From a virus (lineage: Duplodnaviria; Heunggongvirae; Uroviricota; Caudoviricetes), in the IMG/VR virus record IMGVR_UViG_648276648_000008: a stretch of DNA of 12,954 nt; one strand, written 5' to 3'. The position numbers were made by a program, and so were the translations under genes. This document shows positions 8,140-12,954 of the stretch, piece by piece (positions within the stretch are counted from its first letter, which is position 1; each line of letters begins with the position of its first letter). The notes beneath the pieces are model-generated. The model saw only the letters and a list, made by a program, of their open reading frames with translations. It did no database searches and was not told where the DNA came from.

Positions 8140-9569
8140 GTAAAACAACACCGACTAAAGACAGTATTCGTGCAGAGTTTGAAGAGCTTGTCGAGAAAGA
8201 TTCATTCTGGTCGAAGTTTGTCGGCTCTCAATTTGTCTCGATGCTGACATTGTTTATTACCCAGATTGTCTACAGGTGCTTTCAGTATGCCGATGCGGCG
8301 CTGGCTGAAGGCTTTATATCGACCGCGACGCGGCGTTCCTCTATCCTGGCAGCGGCAGAAACGAATAGTTACGTTGGTACCAAGCCAACACCGTCATCGG
8401 GGATGATTGAGATCACCGCCACAAGTGAAGATGCTCCAGCGGTAATCCCCAAAAACATGCCTTTAATATCTGACGACCAGTACCCTTACATAACTATGGA
8501 TGTATGCAGGTTGGTTGACGGCACCGGTACGGTAGAAGTGGCACAGTTGGAAATCCAGGAGGTGACATATACCGTTACGGCAGCCAAAGAATTTCTGGAA
8601 GTCGTGTTATCAAAGGCTCTCACTGCTGTCTGCTATAAGCTGGAAGTATTCGTGACGACCGATGGTAAGACCACGCAGTGGTCTTCCAGCACTATGTTCC
8701 GGTTAGCTGGTAGTAAAAGCCAGGTCTACGTTGAGTTTTATAAACCATCCGAGCAGTTGGGGGTTCGATTCGGTGATGGGCTAATTGGGCAAATACCGCC
8801 AGAAGGCTCGACCATTACACTTAAGGTATGGTGCACCAACGGAGATATAACCTTGGTTGCTGGCCAAAATCTGACGCCTGTCGATTCTGCGGCTAATTTA
8901 GCTAATTTGATTTCAGTTAAGACAACGACACCCATAACCGCAGGTACCGATGCCGAAACAACGGAGATCACACGTAATCGTGCACAATATTACCTTGCCT
9001 ATGATGATCAGGTCGTATGGGGCGGGGACTATACGTATTTTCTGGTGCGTAACATCCCGGGACTGTCCTGGGTAAAGGCATGGGGCGAAGGCCAGCAAGA
9101 GAAATTAGATGGTGCTTATAATGTTCGGAATATCAATAAGATATTTATTTCAGGATGGCATCCAAACAAAAGCCAGTCAGAGCTTGAAGAAATGATCCTG
9201 GCTGCCTTTAAGAAGGTGCCGAATGAGTTGAACAAGAAATTCTCGTATAAAGAGGTCAGAAAACTACCCTTTAAGATCACCATCACCGGGCGGATATCGG
9301 CAAGCCTGACCATTGAGAACGTGACTGATGAGCTGAAGTCGGCACTGGAAACAAAATTTGGGCGTGACTCAACTTTCTTTGATCCGAACCGTGTTGGCAA
9401 GTACATCCTAATCAAGAAAAAAGACGTTTGGGCATTTATCGAAACGCTGGGTTATTTCCGCGACTTTTATCTGGAATTTGTCGAGTGGAATGAGTCCAAC
9501 GGCTTTTACGATTTCGTTTATCTGGATACAGAAAACTCCACCTTTAATATTTCGTATGAGGAGGAGTGA
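8136..9569 (+). CDS. bplA: Baseplate J-like protein (T4 gp6 / Mu gp47 / P2 gpJ family; P1 BplA-like)
   Basis: 477-aa ORF; ATG overlaps upstream stop (ATGA at 8136..8139). N-terminal region SIRAEFEELVEKDSFWSKFVGSQFVSMLTLF...AALAEGFISTATRRSSILAAAETNSYVGTKPTPSSGMIEITA resembles the start of Baseplate_J proteins. Follows a gp25-like gene as in contractile-tail baseplate operons. Confidence 0.75.
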   Translation: MSKTTPTKDSIRAEFEELVEKDSFWSKFVGSQFVSMLTLFITQIVYRCFQYADAALAEGFISTATRRSSILAAAETNSYVGTKPTPSSGMIEITATSEDAPAVIPKNMPLISDDQYPYITMDVCRLVDGTGTVEVAQLEIQEVTYTVTAAKEFLEVVLSKALTAVCYKLEVFVTTDGKTTQWSSSTMFRLAGSKSQVYVEFYKPSEQLGVRFGDGLIGQIPPEGSTITLKVWCTNGDITLVAGQNLTPVDSAANLANLISVKTTTPITAGTDAETTEITRNRAQYYLAYDDQVVWGGDYTYFLVRNIPGLSWVKAWGEGQQEKLDGAYNVRNINKIFISGWHPNKSQSELEEMILAAFKKVPNELNKKFSYKEVRKLPFKITITGRISASLTIENVTDELKSALETKFGRDSTFFDPNRVGKYILIKKKDVWAFIETLGYFRDFYLEFVEWNESNGFYDFVYLDTENSTFNISYEEE

Positions 9570-10405
9570 TGCAGCGTTCCTGGTTTAATAACCGGCTTAC
9601 ATCAGCTAAGCAAAAGTCATTGCTCTATAAATCATTGGCTGATTTGGTTCAGTCAATGATGGATACCTTTGTTGACCCATGGTTGGAGCGAATTACCAAC
9701 CGGAAGTCTATTTTTTCCATGAGCAAGGAGGATCTGGAGACCAGGACAAATGAACTTGGCCAGTTCTTTACTATCAGAACGTCGAACTCATCTTCCGTTC
9801 CGATGTTGTTACAACAGCGTCTTGATGAGATTCACTTTAAGGGGACTGAACGCCCTATAAACCAGACAATTTACCGCGAATTTAACGGTATTTCTGTTTT
9901 ATGGGATCCGATATATGCACCGGTGGACCTTGAGCGTCATCCCTATGGCACGGTTCTAATACCTGAAAGCACACTGGAGACTACCGGCGGCACATTCGGC
10001 GAGATGTTTCTGACTTCCAGAGGGATGATCAGTATTCCCATAAACGACCTGGCCCGGACAATGGGGATTACTGGCACGATAGATCAGTCCGCAATTACAG
10101 AAGAAATTCTCAGAAAGTTTAATCAGTTCGTAAAGCCTCTACTGCCACTGCATATAGTGTTTGATGGGCTTACGCTCTATTTGTCGGTTGTTGTAAATGA
10201 ACACGCCGACATGATCACTTTGAACGAGATTTCTGATACCGAAAAAGCGTACTGCTGGTTTGAAACTTCGGATACAACTTCGCTTACTGGAGTTACGTCG
10301 ATTAGCGCTCCGATCACTGCAACGCCGGGCGGCACTATTGTGAAAGCAACGCCTACGTTTGATCGCACCCGCGCAGATGATTTGCTGCTGGATAGTGATG
10401 CCTGA
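9569..10405 (+). CDS. Baseplate / tail protein (P2 gpI / Mu gp48 position; P1 gene 16 position by synteny)
   Basis: ATG at 9569..9571 overlaps upstream TGA (9567..9569), preceded by GAGGAGG (9558..9564). The ORF track's 9566 start is GTG. About 278 aa. Assigned by position after the J-like gene; no motif recognised. Confidence 0.7.
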   Translation: MQRSWFNNRLTSAKQKSLLYKSLADLVQSMMDTFVDPWLERITNRKSIFSMSKEDLETRTNELGQFFTIRTSNSSSVPMLLQQRLDEIHFKGTERPINQTIYREFNGISVLWDPIYAPVDLERHPYGTVLIPESTLETTGGTFGEMFLTSRGMISIPINDLARTMGITGTIDQSAITEEILRKFNQFVKPLLPLHIVFDGLTLYLSVVVNEHADMITLNEISDTEKAYCWFETSDTTSLTGVTSISAPITATPGGTIVKATPTFDRTRADDLLLDSDA

Positions 10406-10408
10406 TAA

Positions 10409-10433
10409 TCACCCCGTCCGCAGGGCGGGGTGA
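10409..10433 (+). terminator. GC-rich stem-loop (TCACCCCGTCC-GCA-GGGCGGGGTGA) 4 bp after the stop; possible terminator or mRNA stabiliser
   Basis: 11-bp stem with one G-U pair and a 3-nt loop, read from the sequence. Downstream is only moderately T-rich (TTACTTATCTT), so at best a weak or partial intrinsic terminator. Confidence 0.3.
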
Positions 10434-10483
10434 CAAGTTACTTATCTTACAATGAGGCTTCACAACATTGATTAGGGAAAATC

Positions 10484-10918
10484 ATGTCTGACGTCTCAAC
10501 AAACCTCTATAAGAGTCAGTTGTTGGACTATTACTATCAGCGGCGCGCTGAATCGTCCATTAACAAAGGCTCTCGATTTTTAATCAGCAAGGCCGTTTTC
10601 GGTACCAGTTCGCTGGTTACTAAGAAAGGAGATGGCACTTATGAGATTGGAGAACTGCCAAAGGCTTTCGAACTGGCAGAACTGACCAGTCAATTTTGCA
10701 CCATCAACCTCGTCCCAACCTACTCAGGCGGGATAATTACTGTCCGAATGGACCTTGATCAAAGCCAGTTGCAGGAAGGGAAAAACTACCCATTCAACAC
10801 TCTGGTTGTTCTGGATAACGAGAACAAGCCAATCGCCATTATTTGTGTCCAGGAAGACTCGCTGTATGTGGGCAAAACATATACCGCAGTTATGGCCATA
10901 AACACGACTACAGCATAA
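10484..10918 (+). CDS. Small tail-fibre-associated protein (P1 gene R position by synteny)
   Basis: 144-aa ORF, AGGGA RBS upstream, stop TAA at 10916..10918 followed 11 bp later by the fibre gene. Function inferred from position only. Confidence 0.65.
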   Translation: MSDVSTNLYKSQLLDYYYQRRAESSINKGSRFLISKAVFGTSSLVTKKGDGTYEIGELPKAFELAELTSQFCTINLVPTYSGGIITVRMDLDQSQLQEGKNYPFNTLVVLDNENKPIAIICVQEDSLYVGKTYTAVMAINTTTA

Positions 10919-10929
10919 GGATATGCTTG

Positions 10930-12954
10930 ATGAATGACGTTACAGTTGTTACATCGGTTACTTACCCATCATCCGAGTCGTTGGCTCTGGTGGCCGATGT
11001 GCAATACCACGAACCATATCTGTCAGCCGCGCTAAACCGAAAATTCAGGGGGATTGTTGACCCGGGATTTTATGCCGGTTTCTTACCTAAGCCTGGCGGT
11101 GGGATGAACCTGTTAATTACCTCAGTGGATGGTGATAAAACCGCAGGCGCGGCGTCGGTGGATATTGGTGAATTTTACCAGGTAACTATTCAGCAACGTA
11201 AGGATATTTCTCTTGCACTTAGTGCAGGCAAGAAATATGCAATTGTGCTGAAGGGAAGATACCTCCTTGGAGAAGATACCTACCAGGTGAATACCGCGTC
11301 ACATATTCATGCGGCTGAATTTGTTGCCAGAACCTATACCGATTCATATCAGTTAGGAGATGGGGAGCTGCTTGTTTGTACGGTGAATATCCCTGCTAGT
11401 GTATCTGCCATTACCCAGGAGATGATTGATACATCCGAGCGTATCAACCGCTCGATCGGCATTGATATTTCAGACTCTGTAACCAGTACCAGAAGTGATG
11501 TTGCTGCAAGTTCGCTGGCAGTTAAAAAAGCCTACGATCTGGCGAAAAGCAAGTATACGGCACAGGATGCAAGCACAACGCAAAAGGGATTAGTTCAGCT
11601 CAGTAGCGCAACTAACAGCGACAGCGAAACAATGGCGGCTACCCCTAAAGCTGTTAAGTCTATAAAAGATCTGGCTGATACCAAAGCGCCAATAGAAAGC
11701 CCGAGTCTGACAGGAACGCCAACCGCGCCGACGGCAGCGCAAGGTACAAATAGCACGCAGATCGCAAATACAGCCTTTGTTAAGGCAGCTATAACGGCAC
11801 TTATCAACGGTGCACCTGGCACACTGGATACGCTTAAAGAAATAGCTGCTGCGATCAATAACGACCCGAATTTCAGCACAACTATCAACAATGCTCTGGC
11901 TCTTAAAGCTCCTTTAGCAAGTCCTGCATTAACGGGAATACCTACTGCGCCTACCGCTGCACAGGGTACGAATAACACGCAGATCGCAAATACAGCCTTT
12001 GTTAAGGCAGCTATAACTGCACTTATCAACGGTGCGCCTGGCACACTGGATACGCTTAAAGAAATAGCTGCTGCGATCAATAACGACCCGAATTACAGCA
12101 CAACTATCAACAATGCCTTGGCTCTCAAAGCGCCTTTGGCAAGCCCTGCATTAACGGGTGTCCCTACTGCGCCTACCGCTGCACAGGGTACGAATAACAC
12201 GCAGATTGCTACGACCGCTTATGTAAGAGCTGCCATATCCGCATTGGTTGGTTCATCACCAGAAGCTCTTGATACCCTGAATGAGCTTGCCGCAGCACTT
12301 GGCAATGACCCGAACTTTGCGACAACAATGACAAATGCGCTGGCAGGCAAACAGCCTCTGGATGCAACTTTAACCGCTCTCGCTGCCCTTGCGACTGGTG
12401 CAAACAAACTGCCTTATTTCACTGGTAAGGATACGGTAGCTCAGACTGATTTAACGTCAGTCGGTCGCGATATTCTGGCTAAAACAAGCACACTGGCCGT
12501 TATCCAATACCTTGGTTTAAGAGAACTCGGTACCAGCGGTGAAAAGATCCCCCTGTTGAGCACGGCTAACACATGGAGTGCGCGCCAGACTTTCAACGGC
12601 GGGATCACCGGGGCACTGACAGGGAACGCCGACACCGCGACGAAATTGAAAACAGCCATAAACATTAATGGCGTCAGGTTCGATGGTTCTGGTGACATTA
12701 ATATCAATACTCTGGTATCGCGCGGTCGCGTAACGGCCTTGGAGGCGAATGCACAGGGAACATCTGGGATTCAGCTGTATGAGGCATACAACAATGGCTA
12801 CCCTTCCCCCTATGGCAATGTGCTTCACCTTAAAGGTGCCACCGCTGCTGGCGAAGGTGAGTTATTCATTGGCTGGAGTGGCACGAGCGGTGCCCATGCG
12901 CCCGTACATATCCGTTCGCGGCGGGATACTGATTCTGCCAACTGGTCTGAATGG
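10930..12954 (+). CDS. S: Tail fibre protein, N-terminal >=675 codons (P1 S / Mu S / P2 H / lambda Stf family); continues past window end
   Basis: AAGGA RBS 8 nt before ATG 10930; frame open to the window end, checked by hand translation. Hallmark fibre blocks: TQKGLVQLSSATNSDSETMAATPKAVK, PSLTGTPTAPTAAQGTNSTQIANTAFV, ALDTLNELAAALGNDPNFATTMTNALAGKQP, LPYFTGKDT...VGRDILAK. Absent from the ORF track because there is no stop in the window. Confidence 0.9.
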   Translation, partial: MNDVTVVTSVTYPSSESLALVADVQYHEPYLSAALNRKFRGIVDPGFYAGFLPKPGGGMNLLITSVDGDKTAGAASVDIGEFYQVTIQQRKDISLALSAGKKYAIVLKGRYLLGEDTYQVNTASHIHAAEFVARTYTDSYQLGDGELLVCTVNIPASVSAITQEMIDTSERINRSIGIDISDSVTSTRSDVAASSLAVKKAYDLAKSKYTAQDASTTQKGLVQLSSATNSDSETMAATPKAVKSIKDLADTKAPIESPSLTGTPTAPTAAQGTNSTQIANTAFVKAAITALINGAPGTLDTLKEIAAAINNDPNFSTTINNALALKAPLASPALTGIPTAPTAAQGTNNTQIANTAFVKAAITALINGAPGTLDTLKEIAAAINNDPNYSTTINNALALKAPLASPALTGVPTAPTAAQGTNNTQIATTAYVRAAISALVGSSPEALDTLNELAAALGNDPNFATTMTNALAGKQPLDATLTALAALATGANKLPYFTGKDTVAQTDLTSVGRDILAKTSTLAVIQYLGLRELGTSGEKIPLLSTANTWSARQTFNGGITGALTGNADTATKLKTAININGVRFDGSGDININTLVSRGRVTALEANAQGTSGIQLYEAYNNGYPSPYGNVLHLKGATAAGEGELFIGWSGTSGAHAPVHIRSRRDTDSANWSEW
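11701..12366 (+). repeat. Three in-frame tandem copies of a 222-bp (74-codon) unit within the tail-fibre gene; copies 1 and 2 near-identical, copy 3 diverged
   Basis: Unit starts at 11701, 11923 and 12145. Anchor ATCGCAAATACAGCCTTTGTTAAGGCAGCTATA at 11761 recurs at 11983, and copy 3 has the diverged equivalent (ATTGCTACGACCGCTTATGTAAGAGCT) from 12205. Each unit encodes P(S/A)LTG.PTAPTAAQGTN.TQIA.TAF(V)...NDPN(F/Y)..T..NALA.K.PL. Confidence 0.85.
12500..12525. promoter_or_regulatory. Candidate DNA-invertase crossover site (cix/gix/hix-like): TTATCCAATACC-TT-GGTTTAAGAGAA
   Basis: 26 bp with two imperfect 12-bp inverted half-sites (8 of 12 symmetric) around a 2-bp core, with the ACC..GGTTT core-proximal pattern seen in Gin/Hin/Cin sites as I recall them. 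Lies in the fibre gene just after the conserved VGRDILAK block, where Mu and P1 fibres switch from constant to invertible variable part. Confidence 0.55.

What the first reader, a model, noticed from the sequence alone, without database searches (positions are those of the whole stretch)
12500..12525. Invertase crossover-like site inside the tail-fibre gene, implying an invertible host-range segment starting here
Seen: TTATCCAATACC TT GGTTTAAGAGAA has the 12-2-12 architecture of Hin/Gin/Cin sites and lies in frame, encoding ...VIQYLGLREL..., at the point where fibre conservation normally ends. Established: P1 (Cin/cix) and Mu (Gin/gix) swap alternative fibre C-termini by inversion at a site within the fibre gene. 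Inference: the last ~430 bp of the window are one orientation of a variable fibre segment, with the second site and a serine invertase gene downstream of the window.
Basis: partly seen in the sequence, partly recalled or inferred. Interest (0 to 1): 0.6.

Follow-up and report, generated by a model that had tools for sequence, protein, structure and literature searches.

The report
Phage P1 cixR fibre-inversion site

Summary
The 26-mer TTATCCAATACC TT GGTTTAAGAGAA is at window 12500-12525 as described. It lies in frame in the fibre gene (aa 524-533, VIQYLGLREL).

It is base-for-base the cixR site of phage P1. It coincides with the cixR and crossover features annotated in the P1 genome, and it is the reverse complement of the published cixR sequence. 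The window is the tail, baseplate and fibre module of a P1-like phage-plasmid.

The window ends 429 bp after the site, so its own downstream cannot be read. Its nearest relative is an IMG/VR contig with no mismatch to the window over the last 4 kb. That contig has every predicted part:
- an inverted cixL 4,550 bp downstream;
- two opposed chaperone genes and an opposed alternative fibre C-terminus;
- a 186-aa Cin gene containing the 72-bp stretch that P1 annotates as its inversion enhancer (70/72 identical).

Inverting the segment in silico gives an intact alternative fibre (1046 versus 1159 aa). Two natural plasmids differ by exactly this inversion, 99.87% identical across 4,572 bp between the two sites.

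One refinement: 12514-~12700 is an inverted repeat shared by both orientations, so only ~12700-12954 is orientation-specific. The window's orientation encodes a P1 S'-type tip.

Verdict: observation confirmed, interpretation supported, already known, low interest.

The parts
12500..12525 (+). cixR: the 26-bp Cin crossover site, made of two 12-bp half-sites around a 2-bp core
   Evidence: Identical to P1 at L001 8379-8404, which covers the annotated cixR at 8382-8401. It is the reverse complement of the published cixR, TTCTCTTAAACC AA GGTATTGGATAA. No chance match in 200 shuffles.
12512..12513 (+). Central TT dinucleotide, the point of strand exchange
   Evidence: P1 annotates the crossover between L001 8391 and 8392, which are the two central T's. 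The partner site has the same TT core when read in the same half-site orientation.
10930..12513 (+). Sc, the constant N-terminal part of tail-fibre gene S
   Evidence: ORF open from the ATG at 10930. About 96% identical to P1 S/Sc. Pfam Phage_fiber_2 match.
12514..12700 (+). Inner inverted repeat of the invertible segment. It encodes fibre residues that are the same in both orientations.
   Evidence: In L002 the two arms are 100% identical over the first 100 bp and 89% over the next 100 bp, then drop to random levels. The S protein is identical for its first 587 aa in both orientations. A BLAST inverted match covers window 12502-12700 at 97%.
12701..12954 (+). Orientation-specific start of the variable part Sv (P1 S'-type), cut off by the window's end
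   Evidence: This stretch lies next to Sc in L002, L005 and L011, but next to cin on the opposite strand in L004. The full variable part in the nearest relative is 93.8% identical over 518 aa to P1 S'.
10484..10918 (+). Gene R, the tail-fibre structural or assembly gene that precedes S
   Evidence: A 144-aa ORF, collinear with P1 gpR at L001 6585-7019.
10435..10453 (+). Late promoter LPs (-22 box and -10 box) upstream of R and S
   Evidence: 19 of 19 bases identical to the LPs promoter annotated in P1. Its function is taken from the P1 annotation and was not tested here.

Best explanation
The 26-mer is cixR, one of the two crossover sites of the P1-family Cin/cix inversion switch. It sits inside tail-fibre gene S of a P1-like phage-plasmid.

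The mechanism below is established for P1 and the Hin/Gin/Cin family. It is inferred for this element. Cin is a small serine recombinase. Cin dimers bind cixR and the inverted partner cixL, which lies about 4.55 kb downstream and overlaps the 3' end of cin. A Fis-bound enhancer inside cin helps bring the sites together. Both sites are cut at the central TT, one pair of half-sites rotates, and the ends are rejoined. This inverts the segment.

The constant part of the fibre gene (Sc, 10930-12513) and its late promoter stay fixed. Inversion therefore fuses Sc in frame to one of two alternative C-terminal receptor-binding parts, and brings the matching chaperone gene (U or U') in behind it. The result is a change of host range.

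The window shows the orientation that expresses a P1 S'-type tip.
For: Shown directly:
- The site is identical to the annotated P1 cixR and its crossover point, and to the published cixR sequence.
- The window is P1-family DNA throughout.
- The site is in frame in the gene S homologue.

Shown in the closest relatives:
- Contig L011+L031 is 99.85% identical to window 4487-12954, with no mismatch after 8926.
- That contig has the cixL sequence CAATCCTAAACCTTGGTTTAAGAGAA on the opposite strand 4,550 bp downstream. It also has U-like and U'-like genes in opposed orientation, an opposed Sv' arm, and a 186-aa recombinase gene overlapping cixL.
- The recombinase is 184/186 identical to P1 Cin and has Resolvase and HTH_7 domains.
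- The 72-bp stretch that the P1 record annotates as the enhancer is 70/72 identical inside cin.

Functional tests by computation:
- In-silico inversion keeps the reading frame and gives intact fibres: 987/972 aa in P1 and 1046/1159 aa in this lineage.
- The predicted flipped junction exists in nature at 99.9% over 1,200 bp.
- Plasmids L004 and L005 are collinear outside the sites. Between them, across 4,572 bp, they are 99.87% identical but inverted. The fibre in L004 is 1,159 aa, the length the in-silico inversion predicted, and the two chaperone genes are swapped.

Literature: Cin-mediated C-segment inversion at the cix sites switches S and S' fibres and host range (bioRxiv 10.1101/2022.07.24.501295, PMC6906374).
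Against: The window stops 429 bp after the site, so the partner site and cin of this very molecule were not seen. No exact full-length copy of the window exists in the collections searched.

Some P1-like elements keep cixR but have lost cin and the partner site. Examples are phage phi456 and plasmids described in PMC6906374. The window also carries an IS26 end at 1-450, and IS26 has caused such deletions elsewhere.

No inversion was observed experimentally here. The evidence for activity is comparative.
Confidence: 0.93

Rival explanations
1. Fossil site. The sequence is a true cixR by descent, but in the window's own element the partner site or cin has been lost, for example by an IS26-mediated deletion. 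The fibre would then be locked in the S'-type orientation.
For: phi456 keeps the same 26-mer but has only one site. Its similarity to L004 and L005 stops 157 bp after the site and resumes near the 5' end of cin, and no recombinase gene is annotated. P1-like plasmids with a truncated cin or a deleted C segment are described in PMC6906374. The window has an IS26 end at 1-450.
Against: The nearest relative has no mismatch to the window's last 4 kb, continues into a complete C segment with cixL and cin, and stays collinear with L002 at 99.7% for a further 9 kb. All records that match the window's end at 99-100% carry the full system. The window runs through the point where phi456 diverges.
Confidence: 0.05
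2. One site of a multi-site shufflon of the p15B Min/mix type, with several invertible sub-segments and more than two fibre tips, instead of a simple two-state switch.
For: p15B is related to P1 in this region (annotation notes). Min/mix sites are listed alongside cix in PMC3241671. An invertase close to Min occurs in some P1-like plasmids.
Against: In L001, L002, L004, L005 and the nearest relative, only two sites with this conserved half-site are found. The recombinase is 99% identical to Cin. The L004/L005 difference is a single inversion of the whole segment. Internal sites with diverged mix-like half-sites were not searched for specifically.
Confidence: 0.015
3. A chance near-palindrome within a repetitive fibre gene, with no role in recombination.
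For: None beyond the generic point that the loose core motif AAACCNNGGTTT with one mismatch is expected 0.54 times per window by chance.
Against: 26 of 26 bases are identical to an annotated and published crossover site. No shuffle matched. The breakpoints of a natural inversion coincide with the site.
Confidence: 0.005

Closest known systems
Phage P1 Cin/cix C-segment inversion system (cixR within gene S; Punavirus P1)
   Same: The 26-bp site is identical. So is its position in gene S, at the Sc/Sv junction and in the same reading frame. The relatives have the same cixL partner, Cin at 99% identity, a 70/72-identical copy of the annotated enhancer, and the same gene order R-S-U / U'-Sv'-cin.
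   Different: The inner inverted repeat is ~187 bp here against ~560-600 bp in P1. The segment is 4,550 bp against 4,256 bp. Sc has three 74-aa repeats against two in P1. The window is in the orientation equivalent to P1 C(-), the S'-type, whereas the P1 reference record is annotated as expressing S, the C(+) state. The alternative arm (631-aa variable part) resembles neither P1 tip over its length.
Phage Mu Gin/gix G-segment
   Same: The same kind of switch. A serine invertase flips a segment that starts inside fibre gene S and carries alternative Sv/U and Sv'/U' sets. The P1 annotation notes 92-94% identity of parts of the C segment to Mu. The gix sites have the same 12-2-12 layout.
   Different: The site sequence differs. 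The published gix is TTCCTGTAAACC GA GGTTTTGGATAA, with a GA core where cix has AA (TT on the window's strand). The surrounding genome is P1-like, not Mu-like.
Plasmid p15B Min/mix multiple-inversion system
   Same: A P1-related backbone and fibre gene. The P1 annotation notes 96% identity of the R/Sc region to p15B. The mix sites have the same 12-2-12 layout and core dinucleotide as cix.
   Different: p15B has six mix sites and several sub-segments. Here only two sites and a single whole-segment inversion are seen.
Salmonella Hin/hix flagellar phase variation and the e14 Pin/pix element
   Same: The same recombinase subfamily (Din) and the same site architecture. The Fis and enhancer dependence and the subunit-rotation mechanism are from established knowledge of the family.
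   Different: Hin flips a promoter, not a coding segment. The site sequences differ.

Membership tests
P1 cix crossover site (Din-family invertase site) | A 26-bp site made of two imperfectly symmetric 12-bp half-sites around a 2-bp core | tested here: met
   TTATCCAATACC / TT / GGTTTAAGAGAA. The half-sites match at 8 of 12 positions as an inverted repeat.
P1 cix crossover site (Din-family invertase site) | Sequence identity to an experimentally defined cix site | tested here: met
   26/26 identical to the P1 site under the annotated cixR and crossover features. It is the reverse complement of cixR in Table 3 of PMC3241671.
P1 cix crossover site (Din-family invertase site) | Location at the junction of the constant and variable parts of tail-fibre gene S, in frame | tested here: met
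   The S ORF opens at 10930 and the site is at aa 524-533. This is collinear with the P1 Sc/Sv boundary.
Cin/cix invertible C-segment system | A second cix site in inverted orientation with the same core dinucleotide | not testable with these tools
   It lies outside the window. In the nearest relative (no mismatch over the last 4 kb) cixL lies 4,550 bp downstream on the opposite strand with the same TT core. The same holds in L001, L002, L004 and L005.
Cin/cix invertible C-segment system | An adjacent small serine invertase (Cin, ~186 aa, Resolvase domain plus HTH) | not testable with these tools
   It lies outside the window. The relatives have a 186-aa protein that is 184/186 identical to P1 Cin, with PF00239 and PF02796 above their cut-offs. 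No NCBIfam model reached its cut-off.
Cin/cix invertible C-segment system | A recombinational enhancer within cin | not testable with these tools
   It lies outside the window. The 72-bp enhancer annotated in P1 is 70/72 identical in the nearest relative. Fis binding was not tested.
Cin/cix invertible C-segment system | Inversion yields two intact, alternative in-frame fibre genes, each followed by its own chaperone gene | tested here: met
   In-silico inversion in the proxies gives 1046 and 1159 aa, with no frame shift or stop at the junction. The chaperone genes are opposed.
Cin/cix invertible C-segment system | The segment is actually found in both orientations | tested here: met
   Comparative evidence only. 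L004 and L005 are 99.87% identical but inverted over 4,572 bp between the two sites and collinear outside them. The flipped junction is found at 99.9% identity in nature. Inversion within one culture was not tested.

The most novel reading that the evidence does not exclude
The switch is the known Cin/cix system, but this lineage carries a different cargo. Its inner inverted repeat is only ~187 bp, about a third of P1's. Its second arm encodes a 631-aa variable fibre part that matches neither P1 S nor S' beyond short patches. The element would then toggle between a P1 S'-type receptor specificity and a third specificity not yet characterised. Both features lie outside the window, in its closest relatives.
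Probability: 0.5. Interest if true: 0.2.

Novelty: already known. Interest (0 to 1): 0.08.

Why it matters
It matters little for discovery. Cin/cix inversion of the P1 C segment has been known since the early 1980s, and the site is annotated in the P1 reference genome.

It does matter for annotating this window:
- The fibre gene crosses a recombination boundary at 12512/12513.
- An assembly of this region records only one of two states. The state seen here is the S'-type, which in P1 needs O-antigen and reaches Shigella flexneri and E. coli O3.
- Automatic pipelines call the silent arm as a separate "phage tail protein" or "hypothetical protein".

The result also shows that a reader working from sequence alone can recognise a recombinase site correctly.

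Tried and rejected
1. I searched for the partner site with the full 26-mer and up to 3 mismatches in L001 and L002. Only the cixR copy was found, because cixL differs at 4 positions in its outer half-site. Searching with the conserved half-site CCTTGGTTTAAGAGAA found the partner.

2. I looked for the window's exact source in the plasmid collection (PLSDB), E. coli complete genomes, phages and IMG/VR. No 100% full-length copy turned up. The best match is IMG/VR contig UViG_2778261504_000011 at 99.85%. Its stored stretch ended 921 bp past the window's end. A probe at that stored end only returned the same piece. A probe taken from L002 just beyond it recovered the rest of the contig.

3. I considered phi456, which is 99.9% identical up to window 12656, as a candidate flipped copy. 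I rejected that: it is a derivative with a different fixed tip and with cin and cixL lost.

4. NCBIfam gave only sub-threshold matches for the recombinase. Pfam and a direct comparison with P1 Cin settled its identity.

5. A scan for further cix-like cores in the window (AAACCNNGGTTT, 1 mismatch) found only the site itself.

6. The counts of plasmid records covering at least 80% of each junction were 133 as-is and 9 flipped. I do not take these as an orientation frequency, because different lineages carry different second arms.

Full report
**Observation**

It occurs once in the window. With up to three mismatches allowed, none of 200 dinucleotide-preserving shuffles produced a match. The two 12-bp halves form an imperfect inverted repeat (8 of 12) around a central TT.

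An ORF starts at the ATG at 10930 and stays open to the end of the window. The site lies in frame at residues 524-533, VIQYLGLREL. The protein has Pfam Phage_fiber_2 repeats.

**What the window is**

The last 2 kb match phage P1 gene S at 96%, along with P7, D6, RCS47 and hundreds of IncY-type P1-like plasmids of Escherichia, Salmonella, Shigella and Klebsiella. The rest of the window is collinear with the P1 map: pmgC, tub, pmgB, sit, pmgA, bplA, gene 16, R, S. The window is therefore the tail, baseplate and fibre module of a P1-like phage-plasmid.

**Identity of the site**

- The same 26-mer occurs in P1 at L001 8379-8404.
- The P1 record annotates "recombination site cixR; region of Cin recombinase binding" at 8382-8401.
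- It places the "crossover site within cixR ... right C-segment boundary" between 8391 and 8392. Those are the two central T's.
- It starts the [quoted passage not shown] at 8392.
- Table 3 of PMC3241671 prints cixR as TTCTCTTAAACC AA GGTATTGGATAA. Its reverse complement is the window's 26-mer.

The feature is the known P1 cixR site, base for base, and not merely a site that resembles one.

**What lies beyond the window**

The window ends 429 bp after the site, so I used relatives as proxies.

- Plasmids CP063732.1 (L002) and NZ_CP030784.2 (L005) are 100% identical to window 10900-12954.
- The IMG/VR contig UViG_2778261504_000011 (L011+L031, 22,518 bp) is 99.85% identical to window 4487-12954. 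It has no mismatch after window position 8926, and it matches a part of sit that is divergent in the other records examined.

In that contig (window coordinate = contig coordinate + 1564) I found:

- cixR at 10936;
- CAATCCTAAACCTTGGTTTAAGAGAA on the opposite strand at 15511-15486, which bounds a 4,550-bp segment;
- S of 1046 aa;
- a 177-aa chaperone-like gene on the + strand and a 187-aa one on the - strand;
- a long opposed fibre arm that runs up to the second site;
- a 186-aa gene at 15503-16063 on the - strand that overlaps the second site.

The second site is the reverse complement of the published cixL, TTCTCTTAAACC AA GGTTTAGGATTG. It is identical to P1's cixL. The 186-aa protein in L002 is 184/186 identical to P1 Cin and has Resolvase and HTH_7 domains. 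The 72-bp enhancer annotated in P1 is 70/72 identical inside that gene.

**Does inversion at these sites make sense, and does it happen?**

I inverted the DNA between the two central dinucleotides in silico. In P1 the S ORF changes from 987 to 972 aa. In L002 and in the nearest relative it changes from 1046 to 1159 aa. Both forms are intact.

I then searched the plasmid collection with the flipped junction, which I had built from L002. NZ_CP074369.1 (L004) contains it at 99.9% over all 1,200 bp. L004 annotates a fibre gene of 1,159 aa, the length predicted. It carries the same two chaperone proteins as L005 (WP_001164135.1 and WP_001164101.1), in swapped order and strand.

A direct alignment of L004 and L005 is collinear up to the first site and after the second. 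Between them, at positions 7590-12161, the two records are 99.87% identical over 4,572 bp but inverted. The sites themselves are at 7588-7613 and 12138-12163. This is comparative evidence that the segment inverts at exactly these sites in this lineage.

1. In this lineage the two ends of the segment are an inverted repeat for about 187 bp (100% identical over the first 100 bp, 89% over the next 100, then random). The fibre protein is the same in both orientations up to residue 587. So 12514-~12700 is common to both states, and only ~12700-12954 is orientation-specific. In P1 the repeat is ~560-600 bp.

2. Conservation among relatives accordingly breaks about 150-200 bp after the site, not at it.

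3. The orientation in the window corresponds to P1's alternative fibre. The full variable part in the nearest relative is 93.8% identical over 518 aa to P1 S', and matches P1 S only over the shared first 217 aa.

**Mechanism**

The sequence-level facts above are shown. The chemistry is taken from established knowledge of the Hin/Gin/Cin subfamily and from P1 literature summarised. Cin dimers bind the two cix sites. A Fis-bound enhancer assembles the synaptic complex. Serine-mediated double-strand cuts are made at the 2-bp core. Subunit rotation and religation then invert the segment. The promoter (LPs, 19 of 19 bases identical at 10435-10453), gene R and Sc stay fixed. Inversion changes which C-terminal receptor-binding part and which chaperone gene follow them, and so changes host range.

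**Rivals**

- The only serious rival is that the window's own molecule has lost cin or cixL. phi456 has done so: one site, no recombinase gene, and a different fixed tip. Some IS26-rearranged P1-like plasmids have done so as well, and the window has an IS26 end at 1-450. Against this, the nearest relative is identical to the window over the last 4 kb and has the full system, and the window reads through the point where phi456 diverges. I give this rival about 5%.
- A p15B-type multi-site shufflon and a chance palindrome are each very unlikely.

**Novelty and score**

This is the textbook P1 Cin/cix system, and the site is annotated in the reference genome: already known.

The only mildly new points lie outside the window, in its relatives. 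These are a shorter inner inverted repeat and a second arm whose 631-aa variable part resembles neither P1 tip. A third 74-aa repeat in Sc is inside the window. Interest is low.

Noticed in passing
window 1-450: The left end of the window is the end of an IS26 copy, with its transposase reading frame on the minus strand. It finishes with the terminal repeat ...TTTGCAACAGTGCC at 437-450 and abuts P1-like backbone upstream of the pmgC/tub tail genes, in the part of the map where P1 has its sim/ImmI region. This stretch accounts for the more than 5,000 plasmid hits. The annotations under H63 and H65 name IS26.
   Followed up: partly
window 11686-12351: The constant part of the fibre has three tandem 222-bp (74-aa) repeat units, starting at 11686, 11908 and 12130. 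P1 has two (its b1 and b2 elements). This explains the 222-bp length difference from P1. It presumably lengthens the fibre shaft.
   Followed up: partly
window 5383-6702: A stretch inside the sit gene (tape-measure/transglycosylase) is mosaic. There is no BLAST match for 5383-5586, and 5587-6702 is only ~82-88% identical to P1, L002, L004 and L005, whereas the flanks are 97-99% identical. Only the IMG/VR contig L011 matches it at >99.8%.
   Followed up: partly
L003 (phage phi456, OR339795.1) 9601-10995: phi456 keeps the identical cixR 26-mer but has no cixL. About 157 bp after the site it switches to ~1.2 kb of unrelated sequence that completes an 818-aa fibre. Similarity to L004 and L005 resumes near the 5' end of cin. 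It appears to be a P1-like phage with a fixed, non-invertible fibre.
   Followed up: partly
L011+L031 contig 13602-15498 (window-equivalent ~15166-17062); L002 13267-15163: The silent arm of this lineage's segment encodes a 631-aa variable part. It matches P1 S and S' only in the first 64 aa and in short patches, and the C-terminal ~80 aa are 43.5% identical to P1 S. It may be a third receptor specificity. The inner inverted repeat is ~187 bp against ~560-600 bp in P1.
   Followed up: partly
L002, L004, L005 annotations (homologous to window 8136-9569 and to the silent arm): Automatic annotation names the P1 baseplate gene bplA homologue "bleomycin hydrolase". It also calls the promoterless silent fibre arm a separate "phage tail protein", "tail fiber protein" or "hypothetical protein" with an internal start. 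Both labels are misleading.
   Followed up: no
L001 12635-12660 and 12652-13212; contig L011+L031 15486-15511 and 15503-16063: cixL overlaps the last codons of cin. The crossover site is therefore part of the recombinase gene's own 3' end (…FPASSFQS, stop), and only the half-site inside the segment is exchanged by inversion.
   Followed up: no
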